A stretch of DNA of 63,088 bases, filler included. It is 6 parts of 6 records of this genome, joined end to end, with 100 filler letters (N's around TTAATTAATTAA, not from the genome) between each part and the next. Parts side by side here need not be neighbours in the genome. Positions count along the whole stretch, not along the records: positions 1 to 11,781 come from SRR31156797_19946; 5 more parts are not named here. One strand, given 5' to 3'. Positions within the stretch are counted from its first letter, which is position 1; each line of letters opens with the position of its first letter. A model generated the notes under the pieces. That model saw only the letters and a program-made list of their open reading frames with translations, was not told the origin of the DNA and ran no database searches. Of this stretch, positions 1-61,663 are shown piece by piece. Position numbers and translations under genes: made by a program.

Positions 1-165
1 GCCAAGGCCATGGCCGGCGGTATTTCCCAATCCCTGATCACCACCCAGACAGGGCTCATCGTGGCCATTCCAGGACTTTACATGAAGGGGTTTCTGGACC
101 GGCGGGCAGATACCTTGAGCCAGCGCATCCTGAGGGTGGGGCTTTATTTGAAACGACACGTATAA
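1..165 (+). CDS. exbB: MotA/TolQ/ExbB proton channel protein, C-terminal fragment (5'-truncated)
   Basis: Frame 1 reads AKAMAGGISQSLITTQTGLIVAIPG..., the ExbB/TolQ last TM pair motif; stop at 163-165; directly upstream of exbD. Confidence 0.85.
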   Translation, partial: AKAMAGGISQSLITTQTGLIVAIPGLYMKGFLDRRADTLSQRILRVGLYLKRHV

Positions 166-177
166 CAAGGAAACCCC

Positions 178-597
178 ATGTTGAACATATCGGCAAGCAG
201 ACAGCATAAAAAGGGAACCCTGGAGCTGAATATGGCTCCTCTCATTGATATGGTCTTTATCCTGCTGATCTTTTTTCTGGTTACCACCAGTTTTGTCAAG
301 GAAACCGGCATTGAGGTGACACGGCCCACAGCATCCACAGCCACTGTACGTCCCGCATCCACCATCCTCATCGCCGTGAACAACCAGAACCGGGTCTTTA
401 TGGACCACCGGGAAATAGACATCCGTGCGGTGAGGGCCAATATTGAGCGTGCCCTGGCCGAGAACCCGGAGGGTGCCGTGGTGGTGGTGGCAGACTTAGC
501 TTCGAGCACAGGCACGGCTATCCAGGTGATGGACGGTTGCCGCATGGCCGGTGCCGCCAATGTTTCCCTGGCCGCGGCACTGCCGGAGGGGCAATGA
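178..597 (+). CDS. exbD: Biopolymer transporter ExbD
   Basis: LNMAPLIDMVFILLIFFLVTTSF TM motif with conserved Asp; lies between exbB and tonB. Confidence 0.93.
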   Translation: MLNISASRQHKKGTLELNMAPLIDMVFILLIFFLVTTSFVKETGIEVTRPTASTATVRPASTILIAVNNQNRVFMDHREIDIRAVRANIERALAENPEGAVVVVADLASSTGTAIQVMDGCRMAGAANVSLAAALPEGQ

Positions 598-1280
598 ATC
601 CAAATAGCCCCGGCAGCTATTCAAGCCTTAACGGGAGTTGGCAGGCATGGGCCGGGGCCGTCACCTGTACCCTGGTTTTAAACCTGGCTTTGTTCGCATT
701 GATTCCGACCCTCATGAGGCCCCAGGCACCTCCCCAGTCCCTGGGGCCCATGATTCCCCGGATCCAGCTGACCCGGCTCAAGCCCAAAGAACCGTCTGCC
801 AAAAAAAAGCCGAAGCCCCCCAAGGAGGAAAACCAGGTTAAACCCCTGGCCAAACCCCGTACCAGTCGTCCTTCCCTCCGTGGGCTGTCCATGCCGTTTA
901 AGATTAATACCCGCCTGCCCGGCGGCCCCCAGACCCTGGCCCTGCCCGATGTCATGGGAAATTCGCTTGCCGACCTGGATCTTTCCGGCCTGTTTTTACC
1001 CGGGGATCTGGATCAGCCTTTGACAATTCTGTCCAGAATTCCGCCCATCTATCCGTTTAAGGCCAAAAACCGGGGTATCCAGGGCTGGGTGGATGTGGAG
1101 TTTGTGGTGACAGAGCAGGGTATGGTGGACAGTATTAAAATTTTATCAGCCCAGCCAAAGAAGATTTTTGACAAGAATGTTATCCAATGCCTGTCTGCCT
1201 GGCGTTTCAAGCCCGGCACCATCCGCGGTGAACCGGTGAAAACCAGGGTTCGGACACGCATCCGCTTTGAATTAAATTGA
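594..1280 (+). CDS. tonB: Energy transducer TonB
   Basis: N-terminal TM, Lys/Pro-rich linker, C-terminal PIYP...GIQGWVDVEFVV...WRFKPG TonB_C domain; ATG 594 overlaps exbD stop (ATGA). Confidence 0.9.
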   Translation: MNPNSPGSYSSLNGSWQAWAGAVTCTLVLNLALFALIPTLMRPQAPPQSLGPMIPRIQLTRLKPKEPSAKKKPKPPKEENQVKPLAKPRTSRPSLRGLSMPFKINTRLPGGPQTLALPDVMGNSLADLDLSGLFLPGDLDQPLTILSRIPPIYPFKAKNRGIQGWVDVEFVVTEQGMVDSIKILSAQPKKIFDKNVIQCLSAWRFKPGTIRGEPVKTRVRTRIRFELN

Positions 1281-1288
1281 GGTGAGAC

Positions 1289-2662
1289 ATGACAAGCCGA
1301 ATACTATTCATGATCCTGACCTGGGCAGGCCTTGTGAGCCTGGTCATTCCCCTGGCCCATGCCAAGGGAACAAAGGGGCAATCGGAAGGGGTGGCAAAGA
1401 ATTTGGCAAAAACCCTGTCCGTATCGGCCCAGCGGCAGCTCATCAAGGTCAGGGAGCTGATGGCGCAAAATGATTATAAAGGCGCCATTGCCCTGATCCG
1501 GGCCGGCAGGAAAAAATCTGGGTCTGAAACGGTCACCGGGACTTGTGTCTGCACCCACCCCCTGGTCTGCCTGGCCCTGGGAAATTCTTATCTGATGATT
1601 CCGGATTATCCCCATGCCGAATCTGCCTATCTGGCCGCCCTGGCCCTGGCACCGGATTTTATGGATGCCCGGATCAACCTGGCCAAGGTCTACTCGGACT
1701 CCGGCCAATATGACAAGGCAGCTAGGGCATTCCTTGCCGCCTATGAGCTGTCCCACGGCCAGGCAGACTATCTTTATTACAGCGGGGTCATGGCCCTGGC
1801 CCAGGGCCGGGTGAAAACCGCCATTGATCGTTTTGAACGATTGTTTGCTGCCCACCCGGACCAGGTGACCTGCCAGTGGAAGGAAAATTTTGCCAATGCC
1901 CTGATGACAGCCGGCCAATGGAAACGGGCCCTACCTTTGGTCCGGGAACTTGCAGCCCGGGGCACAGGCAAGGAAAAGATCCGATGGCAGGAAACCCTGC
2001 TCCAGATTTATCTGCAGACCGATGACCTTAAACAGGCACTTTCCTACGCCACAGGCCTTTCCAGACAAGACTGTACCGTGGCCAAGTGGTGGAAGGCTTT
2101 GGTTCATATCCAACTCAGTCTAGGTCATTACTCCCGGGCCCTGGATGACCTTATAGTATACGGATTTCTTTCTCCTTTGACCCAAGAGGAGAAAAAGCTG
2201 TTTGCAGACCTGAGCCTCCAATTGGAAATCCCGGCCCGGGCAGTTCATATGTATGAATCCATTTTGGCCGAAACCCGGGACAGTGAGGTGGATGCCAAAG
2301 GGAAAAAGCAGATGATCCAGCGGCTGGTGGCGGCCTACCGGCAGCTGGGAAAATCAGACCAGGCCCTGGCCCTGCTGGACCGGTTTGACCCCAATGCCAG
2401 TGATCCCGAACTTCTTTTGCTCAAGGGAGATCTGCTCTACGAGGCCAAAGCCTTTGAGTCGGCCAACAAGGCCTATTGCAGGGCGGCCAGAAGCGATTGT
2501 CCCCGCAAAGGCCAGGCCTGGCTCATGGCCGGATATGCGGCCTGGCAGCACAATGACATGAATGCCAGCCGCAGCGCCTTTGAAAAGGCGGCCCGGTTCA
2601 AACGGCACCGCAAGGATGCCATGGCCGCCATGGCCCAGCTGGAAAGGACAACACAGATGTAA
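1289..2662 (+). CDS. Secreted tetratricopeptide-repeat protein of the TonB locus
   Basis: Signal peptide (LAHA-K), multiple TPR-like helical repeats, usual position after tonB. Confidence 0.8.
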   Translation: MTSRILFMILTWAGLVSLVIPLAHAKGTKGQSEGVAKNLAKTLSVSAQRQLIKVRELMAQNDYKGAIALIRAGRKKSGSETVTGTCVCTHPLVCLALGNSYLMIPDYPHAESAYLAALALAPDFMDARINLAKVYSDSGQYDKAARAFLAAYELSHGQADYLYYSGVMALAQGRVKTAIDRFERLFAAHPDQVTCQWKENFANALMTAGQWKRALPLVRELAARGTGKEKIRWQETLLQIYLQTDDLKQALSYATGLSRQDCTVAKWWKALVHIQLSLGHYSRALDDLIVYGFLSPLTQEEKKLFADLSLQLEIPARAVHMYESILAETRDSEVDAKGKKQMIQRLVAAYRQLGKSDQALALLDRFDPNASDPELLLLKGDLLYEAKAFESANKAYCRAARSDCPRKGQAWLMAGYAAWQHNDMNASRSAFEKAARFKRHRKDAMAAMAQLERTTQM

Positions 2663-2701
2663 CAGGAAAATTGGACATTTGGACTGGCCTTTTTGGCAAA
2701 A

Positions 2702-2743
2702 AAAGGCAGCCGCTCTCCGGGCAAGGATTATGCGGCTGCCTTT
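2702..2743. terminator. Stem-loop, possible terminator after the exbB-exbD-tonB-TPR operon
   Basis: 12-bp inverted repeat AAAGGCAGCCGC (2702-2713) / GCGGCTGCCTTT (2732-2743), about 40 nt after the TPR stop. Confidence 0.45.
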
Positions 2744-2880
2744 GGGATATGCTCCGGGACGAATCCGGGAGACATGGTGTTTTGTTTATCACTGCGTCCT
2801 CCCCAAGTCAACAGAGCTGTCAGGGACGGCCAGCCCGAATAATATTATGATAACACCATTATTTAATCGGGAGCACGCAG

Positions 2881-4899
2881 ATGAAACACCTCACCCTTGT
2901 GTTGACAACACTTTTATTTTTATTGAATTTCAATCCTTTGTTTGCCCAGGAACCTCCGTCCGGACAGCCAACCGGTCCAGAAGAACAAGTAGACCTGGAG
3001 GATGTGGTTGTCCGGGACCAAAAGCCAAAAAAGAGAATCGCCGCACAAAGCATTTCAGCACCAACATTAGGAGAATTGGGCCATGATGTTGAAATCATCA
3101 CGGGCCAGGCGATGCAGGAGGCTGGTTTCGTTGATCTTACCAAAGCTCTGGAATCACTGGTTCCGGGATTGTATGCATCCACATCCCAGGGCCGCGGGGG
3201 ATACAACCAGGTTCGGATTCACGGAAGCAACGAGGTGCTCTGGCTCTTGGACGGTATCAGAGTAAACGCCATTCATGGCGCATTGAGCCACCCCTGGTCC
3301 TATTCCCTCAGCGTGCATATGGTTGACCGGGTGGAAATCCTCAAGGGCGGGGAAGGCTTGTTCTACGGCACCGGGGCCAGGGGCGGCGTCATCAATATCA
3401 TCACCAAGAGTATTACCAAGGAAACCAGCGGTGAGTTCGGAACCTCATTCGGGGAGGACGGATATCGGGAAGTCTACGGCAATGTCTCAGAGACCTTTGC
3501 CGGACATGGGTTTATGGCCTTTGGGAGCCACGAGGCATATGACGGATATAATGTTGCCGATGACCAGGCATATGCGGATTTTTTTAATACCTATGGCAAC
3601 AAAAGTATCGGGTCAGACCGAACCACAGGCGGGGTTAAATACCAAAAGGAATTTGACCTGGCCGGTACCAGCGTATTGAACGCCCAATACCGCAGACAGC
3701 AGGGGTATTTTGACTACCCCAATCCCAACTACAGGACAGCCAAATTTGACTGGAACGAGGATGTCAGTTCCCTGCAATGGGATCACGATGTAAACCATCA
3801 TTTTTCCTATCACATTACATCCTATCTGCACCGGTGGTGGGCTGAACTGACCCAACAGAATATAAACGGTTCCTTTCTGTATAATGCCGAACCTGTTGAC
3901 TGCGAGGCCTTTGGCGTCAATTTCATGACCAGCACCCGCTGGGGGCAGGGCCATGAGGTCGTTACCGGGATTGATTATCGCACCTATGTGGGAAGTTTTC
4001 AGTGGTTCTACGGCCACGATTTTGACCGGGTACAGGACTATGGCTTTTTTGCCAGTTACCGGCCCTACCTGGCCTTTTCCCCCAAGACCCGTCTTGCCAT
4101 GAGCGCCCGGCACACCATGACCAGCGAGGATGCTAACTCCACGATCTGGGATGTCAGTGTAAAGACCCCCATCACCGGCCCTACCTATGTCCGGGCCAGC
4201 GTTAGAACGGATTTTACCCTTCCCACCTTGGGCCAGCTCTCAGGAGATGTGCCTGCCTGGGGCATCATCAGCAACCCGGATCTGGAACCTGAGGAGAGCG
4301 TGAATGCCCAGGCAGGAATTGGGGGGGACTGGCAGTATTTTAATTGTTATGCCGGTTATTTTTTCAGTGAGGTGGACAATATGATCCAAAGTGTTGTCCT
4401 TTCCAGTGGAGATTCAACCTATAGGAATGTGGACGGAAGGACCCGCATCGACGGCGTGGAAGTGTCGGCCGGCATTGGCCCCTTCAACGGATTTTCATTT
4501 GATGTCAACGCCAACTGGACCAATGCTGAAGACGGGGATACCGGCCAGCAGCTGGAGCAGATTCCGGAATTCAACAGCAGTGCCAATCTCAGATACCGCT
4601 ACAAGGACGGCAGGTTTGGTGCCGACCTGGTGACAAGGTATACCGGAGATATCTACGAGAGGGAGTTGGGCAGCCATGCTGATATCAACTACGGCAACTA
4701 TTTTGTGGTGGATACATCTGCCTTTGTCACCTTTGGCAGGGATAAACGGCACAGGGTGACCCTGCGCCTGGAAAACCTCTTTGACAAGGACTATGCCAAT
4801 GGGTATGGCCGGGCCCGGAATACCGCAGGGGACTACCATGTGTATAAACAATACGGGCTGCCCAGAAACCTGGTCCTTGGATACAACTATACCTTTTAA
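2881..4899 (+). CDS. TonB-dependent outer-membrane receptor (BtuB/CirA-like)
   Basis: Signal peptide, TonB-box-like EDVVV, plug motif VDRVEILKGGEGLFYGTGARGGVINIITK, LRLENLFDKDY and terminal YNYTF. Confidence 0.93.
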   Translation: MKHLTLVLTTLLFLLNFNPLFAQEPPSGQPTGPEEQVDLEDVVVRDQKPKKRIAAQSISAPTLGELGHDVEIITGQAMQEAGFVDLTKALESLVPGLYASTSQGRGGYNQVRIHGSNEVLWLLDGIRVNAIHGALSHPWSYSLSVHMVDRVEILKGGEGLFYGTGARGGVINIITKSITKETSGEFGTSFGEDGYREVYGNVSETFAGHGFMAFGSHEAYDGYNVADDQAYADFFNTYGNKSIGSDRTTGGVKYQKEFDLAGTSVLNAQYRRQQGYFDYPNPNYRTAKFDWNEDVSSLQWDHDVNHHFSYHITSYLHRWWAELTQQNINGSFLYNAEPVDCEAFGVNFMTSTRWGQGHEVVTGIDYRTYVGSFQWFYGHDFDRVQDYGFFASYRPYLAFSPKTRLAMSARHTMTSEDANSTIWDVSVKTPITGPTYVRASVRTDFTLPTLGQLSGDVPAWGIISNPDLEPEESVNAQAGIGGDWQYFNCYAGYFFSEVDNMIQSVVLSSGDSTYRNVDGRTRIDGVEVSAGIGPFNGFSFDVNANWTNAEDGDTGQQLEQIPEFNSSANLRYRYKDGRFGADLVTRYTGDIYERELGSHADINYGNYFVVDTSAFVTFGRDKRHRVTLRLENLFDKDYANGYGRARNTAGDYHVYKQYGLPRNLVLGYNYTF

Positions 4900-4909
4900 C
4901 AGGAGTTGA

Positions 4910-5782
4910 ATGATGAATACCGACGCAGACATGATCCAAACAGCAGACTGGAACCACCTGTGGAAAGAAAAGTTACTTGGTGCCTCCTGGAGAAGGCGGC
5001 AAAAGGATCCGGTGGCTTATTTTGACTCAAAGGCCAAATGGTACAACCAAGTGGTCATGGGCCGGACCAATCATGTACAGGCGATTTTGGACAGGCTTGC
5101 TGTGGATCATGGCTGTTCGGTTCTTGATATTGGATCGGGCCCCGGACTTTTGTCCATCCCGCTGGCAAAAACAGCAGGAAAAATAACAGCCATTGATCCC
5201 TCGGAACAGATGCTCCATTACCTAAAGGAGAATGTCCAAAAACAAGGCATCAAAAACATAACCTGCCTGAATAAAAGGTGGGAGGATGTGAGGATCGGAA
5301 AAGATATAGAAACCCATGATATTGTGATCGCCTCCCATTCCCTTGCCATGCTGGACATTCAAGAGGCGTTTTTCAAAATGAACAGGGCTGCAAACCAACG
5401 GGTTTATCTTTTTGCCTTTGCAGGGAATCAGGCATCGGATTACCGGGAACTCTGGCCCAAATTGTACAATGAGGCATTTGTGCCGGGCCCGGATTACATC
5501 TTTATTGTGAACATCCTCTATCAAATGGGGATAACCGCCAATGTGAAAGTTTGGGAACACAATTCCAGGAATCGCATATCCAGCCTGGATGAGGCGGTAA
5601 AGGAGCGGCTTGCCTACTTTGACTCCCCTTTGCCCTCTGCCCAAAAAATTATCCGGGAATACCTTACCCAAAAAATGGTTAGAGAAAAAGATGCCCTTTG
5701 GACGGAACAGAGGACAAAGACCGCCATGATCTGGTGGGAGAAAAAAACAGGAGATCAAGGGGATGTTAAAAAAAATAATTAG
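4910..5782 (+). CDS. Class I SAM-dependent methyltransferase
   Basis: VLDIGSGPG motif I, TAIDPSEQML motif II, DIVIASHSL. Confidence 0.88.
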   Translation: MMNTDADMIQTADWNHLWKEKLLGASWRRRQKDPVAYFDSKAKWYNQVVMGRTNHVQAILDRLAVDHGCSVLDIGSGPGLLSIPLAKTAGKITAIDPSEQMLHYLKENVQKQGIKNITCLNKRWEDVRIGKDIETHDIVIASHSLAMLDIQEAFFKMNRAANQRVYLFAFAGNQASDYRELWPKLYNEAFVPGPDYIFIVNILYQMGITANVKVWEHNSRNRISSLDEAVKERLAYFDSPLPSAQKIIREYLTQKMVREKDALWTEQRTKTAMIWWEKKTGDQGDVKKNN

Positions 5783-6458
5783 CGCCAGGCTTTCCATGCC
5801 GGGCAGGAAGATTTCAGGATTGGGCAAGATTATTATCGTGGTGATCCTTTTTTCCATGGTTGCCGTTCCGGCATGGGCTAAGCAGGCAAAGGTCAGGGTG
5901 ACTGCCCCGGAAAGTGTGTCAGGGACCTTTGATATGACCATAGACATAGCCAATGCCCTTGATCTGGACTCGGGGCAATTTGACCTGGAATTTGATCCGG
6001 ATATGATCCGGGTGATGGATGTCACAGACGGGAACATTGCAGGCATAGACATTCCTGTGGCCCTGTGGACATCCCTGGGGCCGGGCAGAATAAGGGTTCT
6101 TTTCAATCTGCCCGAAGTTCAAGGCATCAGCGGCACCGGATACCTGGTAAGCATTCATGCCCGTGCCATCGGGAAAATGGGGGATGTCCCAGGTCTCACC
6201 ATCACTGGAGGCCTGCTTGTGAATAAGCAGGCGAACCAGATTCCGGCGGAATGGATCAATGGCAAGGTGAAAATTCAGACCTATGTGCCTGATTCTGATC
6301 CGGTTTTGGCCCCCGAAAACCAGCAGCCCCCCGGTCCTGAAACTGAACCCCATGGCATCTCCGTATCCACGCCCCTGGCCGTGGGGGGACTTGTGGCCCT
6401 GGCTGTTGTCCCAAGTCTTTTTCTGTTCTTGTTCAGACGGGGGCGCAATAAAAATTAA
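5763..6458 (+). CDS. Single-cohesin-domain protein with signal peptide and C-terminal membrane anchor
   Basis: Signal peptide (PAWA-K); beta-sandwich with cohesin-type LDSGQFDLEFDPDMIRVMDVTDG and GISGTGYLVSIH; Pro-rich linker; C-terminal hydrophobic helix plus RRGRNKN. Confidence 0.8.
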   Translation: MLKKIISARLSMPGRKISGLGKIIIVVILFSMVAVPAWAKQAKVRVTAPESVSGTFDMTIDIANALDLDSGQFDLEFDPDMIRVMDVTDGNIAGIDIPVALWTSLGPGRIRVLFNLPEVQGISGTGYLVSIHARAIGKMGDVPGLTITGGLLVNKQANQIPAEWINGKVKIQTYVPDSDPVLAPENQQPPGPETEPHGISVSTPLAVGGLVALAVVPSLFLFLFRRGRNKN

Positions 6459-6459
6459 A

Positions 6460-7734
6460 ATGCCAGTTCCCATCCGAATCATCATAATAGCTCTCGCTCT
6501 TACCCTGACGGGTGTGACAGGGCAACCGGCTCTAGCTACAGCTTCAGATCCCGGTGTCCTGGGCATATTCGGCAATGCCAATGGAGACCATGCCATAGAC
6601 ATGAGGGATGTGACCTGTATTGAACAGATCATCCAGGGGCTTCGTCCCCCGGGTTCCCTGGCAGATGCCAGGTATGACAACAGGGTGGATACCCTGGATG
6701 TGACCCTGACCCAGCAGATTATTTTGGGAAATGAACCAGCGATTACTCTGTTAGACGAAACAGGATCGCCCTTGACCGTGTCCATGCCGGTAAGGCGCGT
6801 CATTCCCGAGCATATTACATCCCTTGAGGCTGTGCGGGTGGTGGGTGCAACCCAAAAGCTGGTCAGTATCGGATCAACCGCCGTTAAAACGTCCATGGGG
6901 CCGGTTTACCTCCAGAACCTTGCCGGGCTGCCCACCATCGGAGCCTATGCCCAGCCCGACCATGAGGCCATACTTAGCCTGAACCCTGATCTGGTGATCG
7001 CATACCGCTGCCGCATCCTAAAGGAAAAGCTTCCGGGTGTTGCCCTGTTTTACGGGGGATATGGGGAACCGTATCCTCCGGAGTACCTTGAAACAGATAT
7101 GATTAAGCTTGGCTATCTTCTCGATAAAAGGGAGAAGGCCCGGGCCTATGTGGATTGGTATACCGGTTACCTGGACATGATCAAGGGCCGGGTCGCCCCA
7201 TTGTCGGAGGATGAAAAGCCAAAGGTATACGTTTTTTACCCGCTTACCGGACTGTACAAGTGCAGGGGGAATTATCCGCCCGTTCAAATTGCAGGGGGGA
7301 TTAACATTGGATCCAATCTGGGGCCCGGGTTTGCCGTTGATGTGGATCCTGAATGGGTGATTGCCCAAAATCCGGATGTGATGATTTCCACCGTCATTCC
7401 GGACAAGGGCGCCTATGAAACAGATGATCTGTCCAAAATGGCAGCGCAACGTGACTCAATTTTGAACCGCCCGGAACTGGCAGGGGTCAGTGCTGTAAAG
7501 AAAGGGAAGGTCTATTGCCTGAACACCTATGCCCTGGGGCTGTTTCCAAACTATATTCTATCCATTGCATACTATGCAAAATGGTTTCACCCCGATCTGT
7601 TTAAGGACCTGGATCCCCGGGCAGTTCACCAGGAATATCTGGACAGATTCCAGCAGATGGATTTTCAGGTCAATGCCCATGGTGTGTTTGTGTATCCTCC
7701 CCCAAAGCCGCTGCCCTTAAATCCAGGGCTTTAA
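6460..7734 (+). CDS. Fe-siderophore/cobalamin-type (Peripla_BP_2) ABC substrate-binding protein with N-terminal dockerin
   Basis: ATG 6460 follows the cohesin stop; signal peptide; duplicated Ca-loop/helix GNANGDHAIDMRDV...ADARYDNRVDTLDV; SBP motifs PDHEAILSLNPDLVI, VDPEWVIAQNPDV, AVKKGKVY. Confidence 0.87.
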   Translation: MPVPIRIIIIALALTLTGVTGQPALATASDPGVLGIFGNANGDHAIDMRDVTCIEQIIQGLRPPGSLADARYDNRVDTLDVTLTQQIILGNEPAITLLDETGSPLTVSMPVRRVIPEHITSLEAVRVVGATQKLVSIGSTAVKTSMGPVYLQNLAGLPTIGAYAQPDHEAILSLNPDLVIAYRCRILKEKLPGVALFYGGYGEPYPPEYLETDMIKLGYLLDKREKARAYVDWYTGYLDMIKGRVAPLSEDEKPKVYVFYPLTGLYKCRGNYPPVQIAGGINIGSNLGPGFAVDVDPEWVIAQNPDVMISTVIPDKGAYETDDLSKMAAQRDSILNRPELAGVSAVKKGKVYCLNTYALGLFPNYILSIAYYAKWFHPDLFKDLDPRAVHQEYLDRFQQMDFQVNAHGVFVYPPPKPLPLNPGL

Positions 7735-7777
7735 AATTCAGGGGTGGTTTGTCAATGATAACAAAGGAGAAAGAAAA

Positions 7778-9040
7778 ATGGGGAAGAAAAACCTGGCCTG
7801 CATGTTTTTCGGCATATTGCTGATGGCATGGATACCCATGGCAGAAACTGCAGCCAGGGGGGTACAACACCACCGACTTGATGTTTTTGGCAATGCCAAT
7901 GAAGATCCTGTCCTGGACATGCGGGATGTGACCTATACCGAGCGCATCATCCAGGGACTTGCACCCCCAAGCAGATTGGCCGATGCCCAAGATGACGGCA
8001 GGGTTGACATCCAGGACATCACCCAGACCCAACTGATCATTGCCGGAAAAGAAAAAAAACTCACGATTCTGGACAATGACGAAGATGCGGTTACCATTCC
8101 CAAGCCCGTGAAACGGGTGATCCCCGATCACATGACAGCTCTTTCCGCCATGCAGGTACTCCATGCAGAGGGTATGGTCGTGGGCATTGATACAGCAGTT
8201 AAAAAGCACATGGGACCCATCTTTTTACAGGATCTTGCCCATCTGCCCCTGATCGGAGATTTTTCCAATCCTGACTACGAAGCCGTGCTTAGCCTTAAGC
8301 CTGATGTTTATCTTGCCTATCGCTCCATTTACGGTCCTGGGGGAAAAAAGGCATTAAGGGAAAAGCTTCCGGGCGTAACCGTGATTGAGACCGGTTTTTA
8401 TACCCCCTACAACCCAGATAACCTTGAAACTGATATGCGAAAACTTGGATATATCCTTGATAAAAGGGAGGAGGCCGAAGCCTATATTGGCTGGTACAAA
8501 GGTTATCTGCACATGATCAGGGAACGGATTGCCACATTGTCAATAGAGGAAAAACCAAGGGTTTTCCCTGCGCCCGGCTGGGACCTTTACAATTGCATTG
8601 CCAGTTTTCGACTGGCTGACATTGCCGGAGGGATAAATATCTGTTCCGGCCTGGGACCGACCTATGCCACGGTGGATCCTGAGTGGATGATCAAACAGAA
8701 TCCTGAAGTTATCCTCAAACAGAGTTTTTCCTCAAAGGCCTATGATACGGATGATCCTTTTGCCATGATTGCCGAACGTGAAGACATCATGAACCGGCCT
8801 GAGCTTGCCGAAATTGAGGCGATCAAAAAGAACCGGGTTTATCTATGGCATATGTACACCAGCGGCATGTTTCCCAACGACATTATCACCATTGCGCATA
8901 TTGCAAAATGGCTTCATCCCCATTTGTTTGAAGATCTGGATCCCCAAAGGATTCACCAGGAGTATGTGGATAGATTCTCTTGCCTGGACTTTAATGTAAA
9001 AAAACACGGCGTGTTTGTATATCCGCCTTTGGAGAATTAA
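7778..9040 (+). CDS. Second dockerin-bearing ABC substrate-binding protein (paralog of 6460-7734)
   Basis: GNANEDPVLDMRDV...ADAQDDGRVDIQDI repeats; PDYEAVLSLKPDV, VDPEWMIKQNPEV; shared C-terminus HP.LF.DLDP...HQEY.DRF. Confidence 0.87.
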   Translation: MGKKNLACMFFGILLMAWIPMAETAARGVQHHRLDVFGNANEDPVLDMRDVTYTERIIQGLAPPSRLADAQDDGRVDIQDITQTQLIIAGKEKKLTILDNDEDAVTIPKPVKRVIPDHMTALSAMQVLHAEGMVVGIDTAVKKHMGPIFLQDLAHLPLIGDFSNPDYEAVLSLKPDVYLAYRSIYGPGGKKALREKLPGVTVIETGFYTPYNPDNLETDMRKLGYILDKREEAEAYIGWYKGYLHMIRERIATLSIEEKPRVFPAPGWDLYNCIASFRLADIAGGINICSGLGPTYATVDPEWMIKQNPEVILKQSFSSKAYDTDDPFAMIAEREDIMNRPELAEIEAIKKNRVYLWHMYTSGMFPNDIITIAHIAKWLHPHLFEDLDPQRIHQEYVDRFSCLDFNVKKHGVFVYPPLEN

Positions 9041-9042
9041 TT

Positions 9043-10128
9043 ATGGCAGACAGCAGCCCTGGAATCAACGGACCAGACACCAGCGCAATTGATGAAAAAT
9101 ACATGGCATTTACCGGAAAAAAGGTCTCATTTATCCTTGCCCTTTTCCCGCTGATATTGCTTATTGCAGGAATAGCAACATCCCTGGGGTCCGCAGACCT
9201 CACCCTGGGGGAAGCATATACGGCCTTGCTGCATCAATTTTTTCCAGATTATTTCCAGTCAAACTGGCTGGCCCAGACCTGTGTATGGGAGTTAAGGCTT
9301 CCTCGAATCCTCATGGGAATTCTGGCGGGAACAGGTCTTGGTTTTTCCGGGTGCATTATCCAGGGCGTCCTCAGGAATCCTTTGGCCTCCCCTTACACCC
9401 TGGGAATTTCCTCGGGCGCCGGATTCGGCGCATCCCTGGCCATACTGGCCGGCAGTGGTCTTGGCGGAGGCCAGTATCTGGTCATAGGGAGTGCCTTTGT
9501 CTTTGCCCTGATCAGTTCATTTATTATCATCGGCCTGGCAAGTCAGAGGGGAGCAAGGCCTGAAACCATGATACTCGCAGGTATTGCCATGACCTGCCTC
9601 TTTGGTTCAGCCACGACAATCCTCCAGTATTTTGGAGAAGCCGAGGCGGTGAAAGAGGCGGTATTCTGGATGGTGGGAGACCTTGGCAGGGCATCCTGGA
9701 ACAAATTATCCATTGTATTTGCGGTACTGGTTGTCTGCCTTCCCCTGCTTTTATGGAAGTCCTGGGACCTCAATGTCATCGGCGGAGGAGATGAGTCTGC
9801 CCAAAGTCTTGGTGTCAATGTGAAGCGTACCAGGATTTTTGTGATGATCATATCCACCCTTATGGTGGCAAGCATTGTCTGTTTTACCGGAACCATCGGA
9901 TTCATAGGCCTGGTTGCGCCGCACATGGTTCGAATGATTATTGGGGGGGATAACCGGTTTCTACTGCCTGCATCAGGACTTCTTGGTGCGGTATTGCTTG
10001 TGGTGTCAGATACCGTGGCCAGAAGAATCATGGCACCGGTTATTCTGCCTGTGGGTACCCTGACAGCCTTCCTGGGAGTTCCCATGTTTATTTACCTGAT
10101 TATGAGGAAAAGGAGAGACTACTTTTGA
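9043..10128 (+). CDS. FecCD/BtuC-family ABC permease
   Basis: WELRLPRILMG, RNPLASPYTLGISSGA, G.IGFIGLVAPH, LPVGTLTAFLGVP motifs. Confidence 0.93.
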   Translation: MADSSPGINGPDTSAIDEKYMAFTGKKVSFILALFPLILLIAGIATSLGSADLTLGEAYTALLHQFFPDYFQSNWLAQTCVWELRLPRILMGILAGTGLGFSGCIIQGVLRNPLASPYTLGISSGAGFGASLAILAGSGLGGGQYLVIGSAFVFALISSFIIIGLASQRGARPETMILAGIAMTCLFGSATTILQYFGEAEAVKEAVFWMVGDLGRASWNKLSIVFAVLVVCLPLLLWKSWDLNVIGGGDESAQSLGVNVKRTRIFVMIISTLMVASIVCFTGTIGFIGLVAPHMVRMIIGGDNRFLLPASGLLGAVLLVVSDTVARRIMAPVILPVGTLTAFLGVPMFIYLIMRKRRDYF

Positions 10129-10898
10129 AGCTTAGGATAAAGGATTTGGCGTTCAGCTATGGAGACTCCCCTGTTCTCAAGGAGATACTTCTGGAGCTTT
10201 CCAAAGCAGAGGTGCTGGGTGTTGTTGGGCCAAACGGTTCGGGCAAATCCACCCTGATCAGATGCATTGACCGGATCCTGAAACCCCAGAAGGGAAGCAT
10301 ACATCTGGACCAAAAGGAGATGAAGCACATGGACCGGATGGAGATTGCCAAGCGGCTGGGATATGTGCCCCAGAATGCGCCGAGAACCTTTCCGGTCACA
10401 GTGTTTGATACCGTTCTCATGGGCAGACGTCCTCACCTGGGCTGGTACTCCGGTGAAAAGGATAGAAAAAAGGTGGTTGAGGCCTTGAAGCGCCTGGGAA
10501 TTGACCATATGGCACTCAGGGATTTTAACGAGCTCAGCGGAGGGGAACAGCAACGGGTTCTGATTGCCAGGGCACTGGCCCAGGAAGCCGATGTCCTTCT
10601 CCTTGACGAACCCACAAGCAATCTGGATATCCGACATCAGTTAGAGGTGATGGATATTATGAGAACCCTGGTGGTGGAAAAAGGGCTGTCTGCCATTATT
10701 GCCATTCACGATCTGAATCTGGCATCAAGATATGCGGACAGGGTGATCATGATGAACAAAGGAAGGGTCTTTGCCTCCGGAGATCCGATTTCCGTATTCA
10801 CGCCCCGGAACATCGCCCATGTCTATGGGGTGGAGGCTGTGGTGAAACATGAGAACGGAGCGCTTTATATCCTGCCCCAAAGACCGGTTGTTAATTAA
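10125..10898 (+). CDS. Iron-siderophore/cobalamin ABC transporter ATP-binding protein
   Basis: Walker A GPNGSGKST, signature LSGGEQQRV, Walker B LLLDEPTSNLD, HDLNLA; TTG start overlaps the permease stop. Confidence 0.93.
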   Translation: MKLRIKDLAFSYGDSPVLKEILLELSKAEVLGVVGPNGSGKSTLIRCIDRILKPQKGSIHLDQKEMKHMDRMEIAKRLGYVPQNAPRTFPVTVFDTVLMGRRPHLGWYSGEKDRKKVVEALKRLGIDHMALRDFNELSGGEQQRVLIARALAQEADVLLLDEPTSNLDIRHQLEVMDIMRTLVVEKGLSAIIAIHDLNLASRYADRVIMMNKGRVFASGDPISVFTPRNIAHVYGVEAVVKHENGALYILPQRPVVN

Positions 10899-10930
10899 TC
10901 GGGATATTTCAATTAACAAAAGGAGAAACC

Positions 10931-11323
10931 ATGTCTGAAATCAAGAAAAACGGTACCATGAGCCTGATAGAGAATATTAAAAAACTCAAATATTATCCCA
11001 CGGGTGTGGAAGGTGATGTGGCTCCTTTGCTGTTTGGCGACCATCTCACCAGCCATGCCATGATCATTCCTCCTGGGTTCTATCCTCCCCATGCCCATCC
11101 CATGGAACTGCTCCTTATCTGTGTTAAGGGGGGCTGCGATATTTTTCAGGGGGATGGCAGGGTAAGGGACAAAATGGTTCCCATGAGCGTGGCACTGATC
11201 CCGGCTGATGAGGAAATCGGCCAAGAAATATGCGGACCCGAGCCCTGCGAACTTATCGTTGTTGTGGCCCCTAAAAAAATGACCCGTGAAGCGTTTATCG
11301 CAAGATTTGAGGGGCAGGAATAG
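10931..11323 (+). CDS. Cupin-domain protein
   Basis: PPG..PPHAHP.E..I.V.GG cupin motif 1; AGGAG RBS; motif 2 His appears absent (IPADEEIG). Confidence 0.75.
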   Translation: MSEIKKNGTMSLIENIKKLKYYPTGVEGDVAPLLFGDHLTSHAMIIPPGFYPPHAHPMELLLICVKGGCDIFQGDGRVRDKMVPMSVALIPADEEIGQEICGPEPCELIVVVAPKKMTREAFIARFEGQE

Positions 11324-11449: not shown

Positions 11450-11781
11450 ATGAAGTGGATGAAGTACCGCACACCTGTATTGACGGCAATTTTCTTTTTT
11501 ATCTGTCTGGGGCAGGTTTGGGCCCAGGAGATAAAAAAAGCAACAGATACCCCGGATCAGGTCCAGCAGATGGAGGAATTGGTGGTGGAGGAAAAGGCCG
11601 GCGCCCCGGGCTATGAAACCACCCCCGCAAAGACGGTCATTGAACTGGATAAAATCGATTTCATCGGCCCGCCCAATTCTGTGCTGGATGCGTTTAAAAC
11701 CCAGGCCATGATTGATTTCAGAGGGACCTCCGACCTGGATCCCGGGGTGGACAGCGTCTATTTTAACGGGTTCAGTTCAAA
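11450..11781 (+). CDS. TonB-dependent receptor, N-terminal fragment (truncated at contig end)
   Basis: Signal peptide (VWA-Q), TonB-box-like EELVVEE, start of a plug-like region. Confidence 0.6.
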
Positions 11782-11881
11782 NNNNNNNNNNNNNNNNNNN
11801 NNNNNNNNNNNNNNNNNNNNNNNNNTTAATTAATTAANNNNNNNNNNNNNNNNNNNNNNNNNNNNNNNNNNNNNNNNNNNN
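11782..11881. other. Artificial contig spacer
   Basis: N44-TTAATTAATTAA-N44; stops in all six frames. Confidence 0.98.
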
Positions 11882-50684: not shown

Positions 50685-52931
<2,247 letters not shown>

Positions 52932-53098
52932 TTAATATTGCTCAAAATCAATACGTTTTTTAACAAATTGTAATTTGACAGAAAACAAATAATTTATTAG
53001 AATAAAATGCAAATTAAGAGCAAATTGCTCTATTAACGACTCCATCATATATATGTCATACCCAGTAGGGAAACATAAGACATAATGTTTAAAAAAGG

Positions 53099-53332
53099 TT
53101 ATGTATTCCCATAAATACCTGTAACCCTTGCAAGGTTCAAAAGCCTCATGATAGTTACAGCGATAACAAATGTAAAGACAAGCAGCACAATCACCAGCAC
53201 AGCAGCCCTTTCAAGTGAAACATCAGTATAGAATAGCATAAAAGAAGCTATGGATATAATGATCAACTGGCCGAGTAATGACAACATACTAAGCCATACT
53301 TCCTTCCTTGTCAAAAAGGGCTTCATATTCAT
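53099..53332 (-). CDS. Small two-TM hypothetical membrane protein
   Basis: 77 aa with two hydrophobic segments. Confidence 0.5.
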   Translation of the reverse strand: MNMKPFLTRKEVWLSMLSLLGQLIIISIASFMLFYTDVSLERAAVLVIVLLVFTFVIAVTIMRLLNLARVTGIYGNT

Positions 53333-53582
53333 AGGTTTGTATTGATGTTATGATCATTTATAGATAATTGCCTGCTAACTCCCAGAGATATCAAATTAGC
53401 CCTAAAAAGTCTATTTTTAATTAGGCAGGATTTTCCTAAAGATTAAAGATATTACATCAACGGTTTTTGTGTAATGGATTATTTATATGCCATTGCATTT
53501 ATATTAAATAGTGTATTGTTATATTATATTGTATTGGCAGTCAACAATTTAAACCCAATACATCTTCTGCCGGAGCAGTTCT

Positions 53583-53817
53583 ATGGACAAAAACATCAAT
53601 TCGCATATAGGCCTCTTTGAAGAAGTAATAACGCATAGCCATTCAGTTCTATTCTTATGGAAAGCTGAAGAAGGATGGCCTGTTGAACTTGTTTCAGAAA
53701 ACGTTTCTATGTTTGGGTATTCTGCAGATGATTTTCTCACAGGGAAAGTGATATTTGCAGACATTATACATCCTGATGACCTGGAGCGTGTTTCACAGGA
53801 GGTTGAACTTAGTTCCG
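53583..53817 (+). CDS. PAS-domain protein, N-terminal fragment
   Basis: FLWKAEEGWPVELVSENV..FGYS.DDF..G...FADIIHPDDLERV; truncated at contig end. Confidence 0.85.
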
Positions 53818-53917
53818 NNNNNNNNNNNNNNNNNNNNNNNNNNNNNNNNNNNNNNNNNNNNTTAATTAATTAANNNNNNNNNNNNNNNNNNNNNNNNNNN
53901 NNNNNNNNNNNNNNNNN
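53818..53917. other. Artificial contig spacer
   Basis: N44-TTAATTAATTAA-N44. Confidence 0.98.
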
Positions 53918-53987
53918 AAAAGTTTTAGCAAACTATTATATTTACCAAAACTATCTTAATCCTAAAAATAAGATATTTTTTAGTGAA

Positions 53988-54500: not shown

Positions 54501-54661
54501 AAATGAATTGTACATAAATAGTTTTTAAACTTCACTATTATTTCACTAGTTCCTTATCTGTTTTTGTATACTCCTTGTATAAAAAACATGAAAAAGCTTT
54601 TTTAATCTAATACGAAAATATATTAATAAAAATTCTACATAAGTTTTGCTAACATTTCATT

Positions 54662-57241: not shown

Positions 57242-57242
57242 A

Positions 57243-58139: not shown

Positions 58140-58140
58140 A

Positions 58141-58437: not shown

Positions 58438-58526
58438 AATTTTCCCTTATTTTTAAAGTTAAAATTATAGTGACCCTTTCCTTTAAATACAATTTTAGAA
58501 TAATACAAACCTATAGTTATAATCTT

Positions 58527-59666: not shown

Positions 59667-59799
59667 GATAATTCCTTTGATAAAATTTTCTTCTATCAAA
59701 AGTATATCAAGAACTTGTCACAATGGCGTCACGAATAATAAAAAGTTTTATTTGGAAAGGATAAAATACAAACAATAAAATTATTGTTTGTATAAAAGG

Positions 59800-61092: not shown

Positions 61093-61094
61093 TT

Positions 61095-61613: not shown

Positions 61614-61663
61614 AGCTTGGCATTATACCTTTTCAAGGCTTATTTTCTAAATGAGCTTTTTAC

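What the first reader, a model, noticed from the sequence alone, without database searches (positions are those of the whole stretch)
5763..10898. Cohesin-dockerin-tethered ABC importer: a membrane-anchored cohesin next to two dockerin-bearing substrate-binding proteins in a TonB uptake locus
Seen: one tightly packed operon encodes (i) a secreted single-cohesin protein with a Pro-rich stalk and C-terminal TM plus basic tail, (ii) two Peripla_BP_2-type binding proteins whose mature N-termini carry the duplicated dockerin Ca-loop/helix (GNANGDHAIDMRDV...ADARYDNRVDTLDV at about 6571-6729; GNANEDPVLDMRDV...ADAQDDGRVDIQDI at about 7889-8047), and (iii) a FecCD/BtuC permease and ATPase. Neither SBP has a properly placed lipobox or C-terminal anchor. 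Established: cohesin-dockerin pairs assemble cellulosomes, and non-cellulosomal ones are mostly of unknown function. Inference: the cohesin is a membrane docking post that holds interchangeable SBPs beside the permease, replacing lipid anchoring. This would be a modular 'transportosome' fed by the upstream TonB-dependent receptor. I know of no characterised example of this in a diderm.
Basis: partly seen in the sequence, partly recalled or inferred. Interest (0 to 1): 0.9.

Follow-up and report, generated by a model that had tools for sequence, protein, structure and literature searches.

The report
Cohesin-dockerin tether for transporter binding proteins
A sulfate-reducer-type bacterium carries an uptake operon, apparently acquired from methane-cycling archaea, in which a membrane-anchored cohesin probably holds two dockerin-tagged binding proteins next to their ABC importer.

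Summary
Window 2881-11323 (+) is one tight gene string: TonB-dependent receptor, SAM methyltransferase, a signal-peptide/cohesin/Pro-rich stalk/C-terminal TM protein, two Peripla_BP_2 binding proteins that each start with a dockerin-type module, a FecCD permease, an ATPase and a small cupin-like protein.

Pfam, a PDB profile search and an Atlas model of the Desulfospira orthologue support the cohesin call. The dockerin call rests on a 31-member family profile that hits solved dockerins.

The same string occurs in Desulfospira joergensenii and on a 226-kb metagenome contig. The Desulfospira genome holds exactly one cohesin and two dockerins, all in this operon.

The cohesin, dockerin-SBPs, permease, ATPase and methyltransferase have their closest relatives in ANME/Methanosarcinales archaea. 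There, PGF-CTERM-anchored cohesins and multi-cohesin scaffoldins sit beside tandem dockerin-SBPs. The bacterial form looks like an archaeal cassette joined to a TonB outer-membrane module.

Binding was not tested, because the complex and structure tools never ran. Methanothrix-type genomes carry related dockerin-SBPs with no detectable cohesin. Dockerin-bearing SBPs in ANME were noted in print in 2022.

Verdict: real, and a new variant of a known kind. The tethering mechanism is likely (about 0.6). Interest is moderate to high.

The parts
178..597 (+). ExbD (TonB system energiser subunit)
   Evidence: Pfam ExbD 99.8 bits
537..1280 (+). TonB. The listed ORF starts at TTG 537. By comparison with the Desulfospira orthologue, the start is more likely the ATG at 591.
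   Evidence: Pfam TonB_C 70.6 bits; the orthologue begins MNP...
1289..2662 (+). Secreted TPR protein, conserved with the TonB genes in Desulfospira
   Evidence: TPR_16 and other TPR families; syntenic ORF in L001
2881..4899 (+). TonB-dependent outer-membrane receptor; first gene of the tight string
   Evidence: Plug 64.5 bits and barrel 97.6 bits; 66% identical to L001 and 64% to L093; no relative in the archaeal loci (TBDR found in 1 of 73 loci)
4910..5782 (+). Cytoplasmic class I SAM methyltransferase, part of the shared cassette
   Evidence: Methyltransf_25 50 bits; no hydrophobic segment; 42-54% identical copies in archaeal loci L063, L026, L021 and L067
5763..6458 (+). Anchor protein: signal peptide (about residues 1-39), cohesin domain (about 45-171), Pro-rich stalk (about 172-200), C-terminal TM (about 203-224), basic tail RRGRNKN
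   Evidence: Pfam Cohesin 26.4 bits, above cut-off 24.1; family profile hits the solved cohesin 4ums_A at E 1.2e-4; hydropathy; the Atlas model of orthologue P0032 aligns to a cohesin cluster at TM 0.61/0.69
6460..7734 (+). SBP1: signal peptide, dockerin-type module, Peripla_BP_2 binding protein
   Evidence: Peripla_BP_2 61.2 bits; 64% identical core in L001
6559..6759 (+). Dockerin-type module of SBP1 (two Ca-loop/helix repeats)
   Evidence: A2 family profile E 2e-31; Pfam Dockerin_1 20.8 bits, below cut-off 22.9; the A2 profile hits solved dockerins, best 2ccl_B at E 3e-4
7778..9040 (+). SBP2: signal peptide, dockerin-type module, Peripla_BP_2 binding protein; 54% identical to SBP1
   Evidence: Peripla_BP_2 71.3 bits; BLASTP against SBP1; 72% identical core in L001
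7877..8074 (+). Dockerin-type module of SBP2
   Evidence: A2 family profile E 8e-35; alignment A2
9043..10128 (+). FecCD/BtuC-type permease
   Evidence: FecCD 309 bits; 85% identical to L001 and L093, 61-73% to Methanosarcinales loci; at most 51% to 300 other sampled genomes of the phylum
10125..10898 (+). ABC ATPase
   Evidence: ABC_tran 122.3 bits; 62-66% identical to archaeal loci
10931..11323 (+). Small cytoplasmic cupin-like protein, last conserved gene of the string
   Evidence: Cupin_2 only 14.4 bits, below cut-off; 79-80% identical in L001 and L093, 38% in archaeal L021

Best explanation
This is a two-membrane uptake system for a metal chelate. The ligand was not identified; a siderophore or a tetrapyrrole is my guess.

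Proposed mechanism:
1. A TonB-dependent receptor brings the ligand into the periplasm.
2. Two paralogous Peripla_BP_2 binding proteins capture it and deliver it to a BtuCD-type (FecCD + ATPase) importer.
3. The binding proteins are not free. Each begins with a Ca-loop dockerin module. That module docks non-covalently onto the single cohesin domain of the protein encoded just upstream.
4. The cohesin protein is a type I inner-membrane protein: signal peptide, cohesin, a Pro-rich stalk of about 30 residues, a TM helix and a cytoplasmic basic tail.
5. The cohesin therefore holds either SBP within a few nanometres of the inner membrane, close to the permease.

Proposed origin: the module methyltransferase-cohesin-dockerin SBP(s)-permease-ATPase-cupin is of the ANME/Methanosarcinales type. 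In those archaea, which have no outer membrane, such tethering is needed to keep SBPs on the cell. The module was most likely transferred into a few Desulfobacterota, where it was joined to a bacterial TonB/receptor module.

What is shown: the domains, the topology signals, the conserved gene order, the closed 1-cohesin/2-dockerin set, and the archaeal affinity.

What is inferred: physical binding, location in the inner membrane, any benefit of tethering in a periplasm, the direction of transfer, and the ligand.
For: Domain calls:
- Domains identified by Pfam.
- The cohesin family profile hits solved cohesins, with 4ums_A at E 1.2e-4.
- The dockerin family profile's 12 best PDB hits are all dockerins or dockerin-bearing cellulases, best E 3e-4.
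- 26 of 31 family members match Pfam Dockerin_1 at E<=1, best 2.7e-6.
- The Atlas model of the Desulfospira orthologue aligns to cohesin clusters at TM 0.61/0.69 over 160 residues.

Topology: two hydrophobic segments in the cohesin protein and a basic C-terminal tail. The SBPs have only signal peptides.

Conserved gene order: receptor-MT-cohesin-dockerin SBP(s)-permease-ATPase-cupin occurs in Desulfospira joergensenii DSM 10085 and on metagenome contig L093. In Ca. Electrothrix sp. EH2 the cohesin and SBP carry adjacent locus tags.

Closed set:
- The 6.1-Mb Desulfospira genome has 1 cohesin match and 2 dockerin matches, all in this operon.
- The 63-kb window likewise has 1 and 2.

Seven bacterial cohesins (42-78% identical) keep 49 invariant columns, including some in the C-terminal TM.

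Archaeal relatives:
- Single cohesins with PGF-CTERM sit directly upstream of dockerin-Peripla_BP_2 genes. Examples are L030 and L053, plus L166 from the metagenome scan, which I call archaeal only because of its PGF-CTERM.
- Of 70 dockerin ORFs in 73 genome loci, 37 are Peripla_BP_2 SBPs, 14 are about 590-aa SBP_bac_5-type proteins (8 of 8 tested confirmed), 13 are cohesin scaffoldins and 6 are other.
- In a 251-genome sample, 9 of 10 genomes with a strong cohesin match (E<1e-30) also carry the dockerin.

Transfer:
- The permease is 61-73% identical to Methanosarcinales copies, but at most 51% identical to the best match in 300 other sampled genomes of Desulfospira's phylum.
- In a 14-row permease tree, window + Desulfospira (100/99) lie inside a 98/99 clade whose other members are all Methanosarcinales.
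- The dockerin was found in 3 of 401 sampled genomes of the bacterial phylum, against 20 of 251 in the archaeal one.
Against: - No test of binding or of the fold of the window's own proteins was obtained.
- The window's dockerins are below Pfam's cut-off.
- The second Ca loop has R or Q where canonical loops have D/N at the third position (my reading; the canonical pattern is recalled).
- Related dockerin-SBPs in Methanothrix/Methanocrinis have no cohesin within 10 kb (0 of 7 loci). Their genomes also have none: 0 of 5 with Pfam Cohesin and 0 of 5 with the A1 profile.
- In the archaeal phylum sample, 10 of 20 dockerin-positive genomes gave no cohesin match. A dockerin on an SBP therefore does not always imply a cohesin post.
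- A diderm keeps SBPs in the periplasm anyway, so the selective value of a tether is unclear.
- One cohesin serves two SBPs.
- Desulfospira has an exosortase, so processing of the C-terminus cannot be excluded.
- The cohesin trees do not resolve where the bacterial clade attaches. The transfer direction rests on a small, midpoint-rooted permease tree and on distribution.
Confidence: 0.6

Rival explanations
1. Inherited relic. The cohesin and dockerins do bind, but in a diderm the tether brings no benefit. It persists only because the cassette arrived as a unit from archaea, where it is needed.
For: The cassette is of archaeal type. A periplasm already confines SBPs (established knowledge). The cassette is rare in the bacterial phylum: 3 of 401 sampled genomes.
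Against: All three partners are intact in at least four bacterial lineages whose cohesins have diverged to 42-78% identity. The alignment keeps 49 invariant columns, and the Ca-loop residues are kept in the four bacterial dockerins aligned, those of the window and Desulfospira. L093 lost one SBP but kept the cohesin and the dockerin.
Confidence: 0.15
2. The C-terminal hydrophobic segment is a sorting signal rather than a permanent TM helix. An exosortase-type enzyme cleaves it, and the cohesin ends up lipid-linked or at the outer membrane or cell surface. The SBPs would then be held near the receptor, or displayed, rather than at the permease.
For: The archaeal counterparts carry PGF-CTERM sorting signals. 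Desulfospira has one exosortase gene. Atlas clusters of small cohesin-like proteins carry PEP-CTERM, LPXTG or SLH anchors. The segment before and inside the TM is conserved among the bacterial copies.
Against: The window protein matches no PEP-CTERM, PGF-CTERM or other sorting-domain model at E<=0.1. The exosortase lies on another contig. The basic tail fits a plain positive-inside anchor.
Confidence: 0.1
3. The N-terminal module works without the cohesin, for example as a Ca2+-dependent stabilising or envelope-binding module. The cohesin protein would then have another partner or role.
For: Methanothrix-type genomes have many such SBPs and no detectable cohesin. 10 of 20 dockerin-positive genomes in the sample lack a cohesin match.
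Against: In this subfamily the cohesin gene directly abuts the SBP genes in every bacterial locus seen. Desulfospira has no other dockerin for its only cohesin. The cohesin-less genomes are those with the weaker, more divergent dockerin matches: of the 10 genomes with best dockerin E between 1e-15 and 1e-26, only 1 has a cohesin.
Confidence: 0.1
4. Cell-cell or matrix adhesin, as cohesin/dockerin proteins of syntrophic sulfate reducers have been interpreted.
For: PMC10553843 (passages read) lists cohesin/dockerin proteins of ANME-partner SRB among putative adhesins and notes inter-clade transfers.
Against: The only dockerin carriers here are transporter binding proteins inside an importer operon. 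Nothing predicts passage through the outer membrane. That paper's main text contains none of the words BtuF, BtuC, TonB or siderophore, so it did not examine this context.
Confidence: 0.03

Closest known systems
Dockerin-bearing ABC substrate-binding proteins of ANME archaea (Chadwick et al. 2022, PMC9012536, section 32)
   Same: The same cohesin, dockerin, SBP, permease and methyltransferase families. Identities run 33-50% for the cohesin and 61-73% for the permease.
   Different: The paper names NikA/OppA and TroA types and does not connect them to membrane-anchored cohesins. PGF-CTERM occurs once in its main text, about cytochromes. The window's version is bacterial, uses a plain TM anchor instead of PGF-CTERM, has one cohesin and no scaffoldin, and is fused to a TonB/receptor module. 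I could not see the paper's S4 Data.
Cellulosome anchoring scaffoldins (SLH- or sortase-anchored cohesins binding dockerin-bearing enzymes)
   Same: A cell-bound cohesin recruits secreted proteins through a duplicated Ca-loop dockerin. The profiles hit solved cellulosomal cohesins and dockerins.
   Different: The cargo is binding proteins, not enzymes. There is no carbohydrate-binding module and there are no multiple cohesins. The system is periplasmic in a diderm. The dockerin is N-terminal.
Anchored SBPs of monoderm bacteria and archaea (lipoprotein, TM-anchored, PGF-CTERM-anchored, or fused to the permease)
   Same: The same functional outcome: the SBP is kept at the membrane next to its permease. 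NCBIfam even has a 'PGF-CTERM-anchored ABC transporter substrate-binding protein' family, which both SBPs weakly resemble (33.6 and 37.3 bits, far below its cut-off of 325).
   Different: The attachment here would be non-covalent, exchangeable and through a separate post protein.
BtuB-TonB / BtuF-BtuCD and Fhu/Fec/Chu-type chelate uptake
   Same: TonB-dependent receptor + Peripla_BP_2 + FecCD + ATPase. The nearest solved SBPs are siderophore-type (6b2x, E 1e-16).
   Different: Classical systems have free periplasmic SBPs and a single SBP. They have no cohesin, methyltransferase or cupin genes.

Membership tests
Cohesin (PF00963) | Match to the family model above the curated cut-off | tested here: met
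   26.4 bits against cut-off 24.1, residues 45-171. Orthologues: L001 25.5 bits, L093 23.6 bits (just below cut-off).
Cohesin (PF00963) | Cohesin beta-sandwich fold | tested here: inconclusive
By proxy, the Atlas model of the 42-45% identical Desulfospira orthologue aligns to a 100%-Cohesin cluster at TM 0.61/0.69 over 160 residues. The family profile hits solved cohesin 4ums_A at E 1.2e-4.
Cohesin (PF00963) | Binds a dockerin | not tested
   Complex prediction never accepted the job. There is only genomic evidence: 1 cohesin and 2 dockerins in the Desulfospira genome.
Dockerin type I (PF00404) | Match to the family model above the curated cut-off | tested here: not met
   SBP1 module alone 20.8 bits, full protein 14.3 bits, against cut-off 22.9. 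SBP2 gave no match at E<=0.1 in the full protein. Homologues do pass the cut-off, for example L018 at 36.4 bits and L014 at 28.7 bits.
Dockerin type I (PF00404) | Homology to solved dockerins at profile level | tested here: met
   The A2 profile (31 modules) has 2ccl_B at E 3e-4 as best hit, and its 12 best PDB hits are all dockerins or dockerin-bearing cellulases. 26 of 31 members match Dockerin_1 at E<=1.
Dockerin type I (PF00404) | Duplicated 12-residue Ca-binding loop followed by a helix | tested here: met
   Read from alignment A2. Loop 1 is N-x-N-x-D-x-x-x-D/N-x-x-D, with invariant N, N, D and D. Loop 2 is D-A-x-x-D-x-x-x-x-x-x-D, with the D's invariant or nearly so. The third position of loop 2 is non-canonical (K/R/Q). 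The canonical pattern is recalled, not taken from a call.
Type II ABC importer (BtuCD/Fhu/Fec type) | FecCD permease + ABC ATPase + Peripla_BP_2 binding protein in one operon | tested here: met
   309, 122.3, 61.2 and 71.3 bits.
TonB-dependent uptake system | Receptor with plug and barrel, plus TonB and ExbD | tested here: met
   Plug 64.5, barrel 97.6 and TonB_C 70.6 bits; ExbD 99.8 bits.
PGF-CTERM (archaeosortase) anchored cohesins of the archaeal relatives | PGF-CTERM motif at the C-terminus | tested here: not met
   The window cohesin matches no PGF-CTERM or other sorting-domain model. Archaeal counterparts do: L166 28.8 bits and L030 19.0 bits, against cut-off 18.8.
Cellulosome | Multi-cohesin scaffoldin, dockerin-bearing carbohydrate-active enzymes, carbohydrate-binding module | tested here: not met
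   The window has one cohesin, and its two dockerins are both on SBPs. The operon proteins have no CAZyme or CBM families.

The most novel reading that the evidence does not exclude
The main job of the abundant and so far unexplained ANME-type cohesin-dockerin system may be to build 'transportosomes'. These would be membrane-anchored posts or scaffoldins of 1 to 9 cohesins that carry exchangeable sets of ABC binding proteins (20 dockerin matches in one ANME-1 genome, about 17 of them on SBP-length reading frames) for scarce metal chelates.

The minimal one-cohesin version crossed from archaea into a few sulfate-reducer-type diderms. It is kept there because holding SBPs at the inner membrane speeds hand-over to the permease. 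It may also let the bacteria take up the same chelate that their archaeal neighbours use; a corrinoid, a nickel tetrapyrrole or a heme-like compound is a guess.
Probability: 0.3. Interest if true: 0.8.

Novelty: new variant of a known kind. Interest (0 to 1): 0.62.

Why it matters
Cohesin-dockerin pairs outside cellulosomes have lacked a demonstrated function. A 2017 review still says their function 'is not known' (PMC5244752, passage read).

This operon gives a concrete, minimal and testable case. There is one cohesin and two dockerins, both on transporter binding proteins, and the full set exists in a cultured, non-pathogenic isolate, Desulfospira joergensenii DSM 10085.

If binding is shown, several things follow:
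- It would establish a third way of keeping SBPs at the membrane: non-covalent and modular, beside lipid or TM anchors and fusion to the permease.
- It would explain much of the cohesin/dockerin expansion in methane-oxidising archaea.
- It would document transfer of a nutrient-uptake module between archaea and bacteria of similar habitats.
- It would raise the question of what tethering buys inside a periplasm.

Tried and rejected
Tools that did not run or were closed:
- Complex prediction (cohesin residues 40-175 with the dockerin alignment) was never run. There was no usable answer.
No fold search was therefore possible.
- No whole genome is held for the window.
- The Atlas does not hold the window's cohesin, so the stored orthologue was used instead.
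- PMC3035643 (Peer et al. 2009) is not held.

Regulation and expression:
- Rfam found no riboswitch in the window, only a tRNA.
- A Fur-box consensus scan gave 11 of 19 matches upstream of the receptor gene; 386 other positions in the window reach the same score, so this is no evidence.
- The promoter and terminator scans were not above shuffles: 13 against 10.0, and 8 against 10.8.
- No RNA holder is listed for the locus among sequencing runs.

Organism of the window:
- The isocitrate dehydrogenase gene gave best matches in Bacteroidota (73%), which is uninformative.
- Cluster look-ups added no names beyond Ca. Electrothrix.

Cohesin type: I tested whether the bacterial cohesin is of the scaffoldin type or the anchor type. 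The bacterial clade is solid (100/99 and 99), but its attachment is unresolved. In one search, 45 of 125 scaffoldin domains and 18 of 22 PGF anchors were kept by random thinning.

Literature:
- Two searches for PDB codes were largely wasted. They showed only that 6b2x is Yersinia YiuA, from a search listing.
- No held paper joins dockerin with Peripla_BP_2, PF01497, FecCD, BtuF or 'iron complex transport'.
- No held paper joins 'cohesin domain' with Desulfobulb*, apart from the ANME paper.
- Searches joining dockerin and cohesin with binding-protein terms found only cellulosome papers and the two ANME/SRB papers.
- One search was badly framed (any 2 of 4 terms), so it says nothing about cable bacteria.

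Full report
**Observation.** Window 1-11323 carries, on the + strand:
- ExbD (178-597)
- TonB (537/591-1280)
- a secreted TPR protein (1289-2662)
- after a 218-base gap, a tight string (gaps -20 to +43 bases):
  - TonB-dependent receptor (2881-4899)
  - class I SAM methyltransferase (4910-5782)
  - a 231-aa cohesin protein (5763-6458)
  - two Peripla_BP_2 binding proteins (6460-7734 and 7778-9040)
  - FecCD permease (9043-10128)
  - ABC ATPase (10125-10898)
  - a 130-aa cupin-like protein (10931-11323)

The ORF list gives SBP1 a start at 6283 inside the cohesin gene. The ATG at 6460, one base after the cohesin stop, is the start that yields a signal peptide.

**Domain identities.**
- The cohesin call passes Pfam's curated cut-off (26.4 against 24.1 bits).
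- A profile of the protein and 11 homologues hits solved cohesins, with 4ums_A at E 1.2e-4.
- I obtained no model of the window's own protein. The ESM Atlas model of the Desulfospira orthologue (pTM 0.58) aligns to a cohesin cluster at TM 0.61/0.69 over 160 residues.
- The dockerin call is weaker on the window's own sequences. Pfam Dockerin_1 gives 20.8 bits for the SBP1 module alone, below the cut-off of 22.9, and gives nothing for full-length SBP2.
- The two modules nevertheless belong to a tightly conserved family of about 65 residues (alignment A2, 31 members, 67% mean column identity).
- That family's profile has dockerins or dockerin-bearing cellulases as its 12 best PDB hits, best E 3e-4. 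26 of its 31 members match Dockerin_1 at E<=1, best 2.7e-6.
- Homologues on archaeal SBPs pass the Pfam cut-off (up to 36.4 bits).
- The alignment shows the duplicated loop-helix. The acidic and amide positions of the first loop are invariant. The second loop is partly non-canonical.

**Topology.**
- The cohesin protein has an N-terminal signal-type segment (residues 15-42) and a C-terminal hydrophobic segment (198-227) followed by RRGRNKN.
- About 30 Pro-rich residues lie between the cohesin domain and that segment.
- Both SBPs have only an N-terminal signal segment, no C-terminal anchor and no lipobox-placed Cys.
- By the positive-inside rule (established knowledge), the cohesin domain would face the periplasm on an inner-membrane stalk. 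This is inference.
- No sorting-signal model matches the protein.

**Other bacteria.**
- The whole string, from the ExbB/ExbD/TonB/TPR genes through receptor, methyltransferase, cohesin, two dockerin-SBPs, permease and ATPase to the cupin-like gene, is present in Desulfospira joergensenii DSM 10085 (L001).
- A 226-kb metagenome contig (L093) has receptor-methyltransferase-cohesin-one dockerin-SBP-permease-ATPase-cupin.
- The best database hits for the cohesin (78%) and SBP1 (79%, partial) are adjacent genes of a Ca. Electrothrix sp. EH2 contig. The window's organism is therefore probably a relative, but I could not confirm this.
- In the 6.1-Mb Desulfospira genome, Pfam Cohesin finds one place and the dockerin profile finds two, all in this operon. 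Pfam Dockerin_1 finds only one of those two, weakly.
- The window itself has one cohesin and two dockerins.
- A lone cohesin whose only possible partners in the genome are the two proteins encoded next to it is the strongest argument here for a specific pair.

**Archaeal relatives.**
- Of 73 genome loci that encode a relative of the cohesin, 71 are archaeal by record title. They are ANME-1/-2/-3, other Methanosarcinales, Syntrophoarchaeum, Ethanoperedens, Argoarchaeum and one Aenigmatarchaeota MAG. Two are bacterial by title.
- I made my own ORF calls, scored them with HMMs built from A1 and A2, and ran BLASTP with the window's proteins. A recurring layout emerged: a short single-cohesin protein with a C-terminal anchor, often then a multi-cohesin scaffoldin (some with a dockerin), then one to six dockerin-Peripla_BP_2 genes.
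- A second layout places a dockerin-bearing protein of about 590 aa beside Opp-type ATPases and anchored cohesins. Eight of eight such proteins tested are SBP_bac_5 plus Dockerin_1.
- One of those eight is on a MAG labelled Desulfuromonadales, where the order is dockerin-SBP, OppB, OppC, cohesin.
- The archaeal anchors end in PGF-CTERM: L166 28.8 bits and L030 19.0 bits, against a cut-off of 18.8.

Counts:

| Measure | 73 genome loci | 77 metagenome loci (scan) |
|---|---|---|
| Loci with a dockerin-Peripla_BP_2 gene | 21 | 12 |
| Loci with a long dockerin-SBP | 14 | 10 |
| Loci with either | 34 | 22 |
| Loci of at least 8 kb with either | 24 of 37 | 13 of 17 |

- Of the 70 dockerin ORFs in the genome loci, 37 + 14 are SBPs, 13 are scaffoldins and 6 are other or fragments.
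- An exhaustive profile search found 2215 representative proteins with this dockerin type at E<=1e-3, and 495 at E<=1e-10.
- Of the best 150, 99 are at least 380 aa long, and 93 of those carry the same SBP core. The profile was built from SBP-borne modules, so this count is biased towards them.

**Against generality.**
- Searching from the SBP side gave seven loci in Methanothrix, Methanotrichaceae and Methanocrinis. These hold up to six tandem dockerin-SBPs but no cohesin within 10 kb.
- Five of those genomes have no match to Pfam Cohesin or to the A1 profile.
- In 251 sampled genomes of the archaeal phylum, 20 have the dockerin (E<=1e-8) and 45 have a cohesin match (E<=1e-5). Ten have both, 10 have the dockerin only, 35 have the cohesin only and 196 have neither.
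- The split follows match strength. Of 10 genomes with a strong cohesin match (E<1e-30), 9 have the dockerin. Of 10 with the strongest dockerin matches, 9 have a strong cohesin.
- The ten weaker, more divergent dockerin carriers have a cohesin in only one case.
- These genomes are related, so the counts are not independent events, and many are incomplete MAGs.
- My reading is that there are two populations. One is an ANME-type in which dockerin-SBPs go with cohesins; the window belongs there. The other is a Methanothrix-type in which the module has no known partner.

**Transfer.**
- The window's permease is 85% identical to the Desulfospira and L093 copies and 61-73% identical to Methanosarcinales copies. 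The ATPase is 62-66% identical and the methyltransferase 42-54% identical to archaeal copies.
- In 301 sampled genomes of Desulfospira's phylum, 263 have a FecCD match. Apart from Desulfospira itself, the best is 51% identical.
- A 14-row permease tree puts window + Desulfospira (100/99) inside a 98/99 clade of eight whose other members are all Methanosarcinales. Methanothrix and five other bacterial copies lie outside. The root is at the midpoint only.
- The dockerin profile matched 3 of 401 sampled genomes of the bacterial phylum, and only Desulfospira strongly.
- The receptor has no relative in the archaeal loci.
- The simplest reading is that an archaeal cassette was captured by a few diderms and joined to a TonB/receptor module. 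The seven bacterial cohesins form one clade, which suggests one origin on the bacterial side, but its attachment point is unresolved.

**Ligand.**
- Both SBPs are nearest to siderophore-type solved SBPs: 9ht5/9hrj at E 4e-19, and 6b2x (YiuA) at E 1e-16.
- The NCBIfam matches of the permease and ATPase lean towards corrinoid, heme and iron-chelate systems, and all are below their cut-offs.
- The gene context hints at tetrapyrrole or Ni/Co chemistry:
  - a HemN-like radical SAM gene follows the string in Desulfospira
  - a CobN-type chelatase and nitrogenase-like genes flank the Methanothrix SBP array
  - a DUF4198 protein sits in L166
- This is a lead, not a finding. The two SBPs are 54% identical to each other. 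Each is closer to its Desulfospira counterpart (64% and 72%) than to its neighbour, so they are old paralogues, presumably with different ligands.

**Mechanism and rivals.**
- I hold the tether model at about 0.6.
- It explains the adjacency, the closed 1:2 set, the anchor on the cohesin and the absence of anchors on the SBPs. It also explains the parallel archaeal layouts, in which an anchor is functionally required.
- What it does not explain is why a diderm should keep a tether. Faster hand-over by confinement to the membrane surface is a guess.
- The rivals are a neutral relic, a processed sorting signal with another location, a cohesin-independent module, and an adhesin. They are set out in their own section.

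**Literature.**
- Chadwick et al. [quoted passage not shown] They do not link these to anchored cohesins or to operons.
- Murali et al. 2023 (PMC10553843; passages read) class the cohesin/dockerin proteins of syntrophic SRB as putative adhesins and note inter-clade transfers.
- Timmers et al. 2017 (PMC5244752; passage read) suggest a role in adhesion.
- My searches found no paper describing a cohesin-anchored SBP or a dockerin on a Peripla_BP_2 protein.
- The supplements of the two PLoS Biology papers, which I could not open, may list these proteins.
- The finding is therefore a new variant of a known kind, not a wholly new one.

Noticed in passing
L071 (ANME-1 genome G408, contig C10, about 12-46.6 kb): One ANME-1 genome has 20 matches to the dockerin profile. 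About 17 are on reading frames of roughly 350-510 aa, the length of these SBPs. 14 lie in one array on a single contig, which ends beside multi-cohesin proteins.
   Followed up: partly
L110 174-5570; L133 1553-6475; L136; L147: Metagenome loci encode scaffoldins with 8-9 cohesin domains directly upstream of two to five dockerin-Peripla_BP_2 genes. In L133 the scaffoldin is preceded by an anchored single cohesin. This suggests arrays of many SBPs on one scaffold.
   Followed up: partly
L074-L080 (Methanothrix, Methanotrichaceae, Methanocrinis): There are tandem dockerin-SBPs (up to six) with no detectable cohesin in the locus or the genome. L074 also holds SBPs without the module, a 1245-aa CobN/Mg-chelatase, a radical SAM protein and two nitrogenase-like proteins. 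What the module binds there is unexplained.
   Followed up: partly
L027 270-4808 (MAG labelled Desulfuromonadales): This may be a second bacterial case, in another transporter class: dockerin-SBP_bac_5, OppB, OppC, then a cohesin gene overlapping the OppC stop and running off the contig. That genome has a single dockerin match.
   Followed up: partly
window 50685-63088: G+C falls from about 0.45-0.52 to 0.28-0.36 beyond about 52 kb. The monomeric isocitrate dehydrogenase at 50685-52910 has its best genome matches in Bacteroidota (73%). This could be a foreign island, a transferred gene or a mis-joined contig.
   Followed up: no
window 11450-11781: A signal-peptide ORF right after the operon reads by eye like the start of a second TonB-dependent receptor. 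It is cut by masked N runs (11782-11881) and gave no Pfam match.
   Followed up: partly
L001 15594-16934 (Desulfospira): A HemN-like radical SAM gene (Radical_SAM + HemN_C) follows the cupin-like gene in Desulfospira but not in the window. It may hint at a heme- or tetrapyrrole-type ligand.
   Followed up: no
window 2663-2880: The 218-base gap before the receptor gene holds a G+C-rich hairpin followed by T's just after the TPR gene. It also holds an A+T-rich perfect 10-base palindrome about 40 bases before the receptor's ATG. Neither was picked up by the consensus scans.
   Followed up: partly
window 41008-42744 and 37358-39043: The window also encodes an Opp/Nik-type binding protein without a dockerin and a B12-binding radical SAM methyltransferase of the PhpK family.
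   Followed up: no
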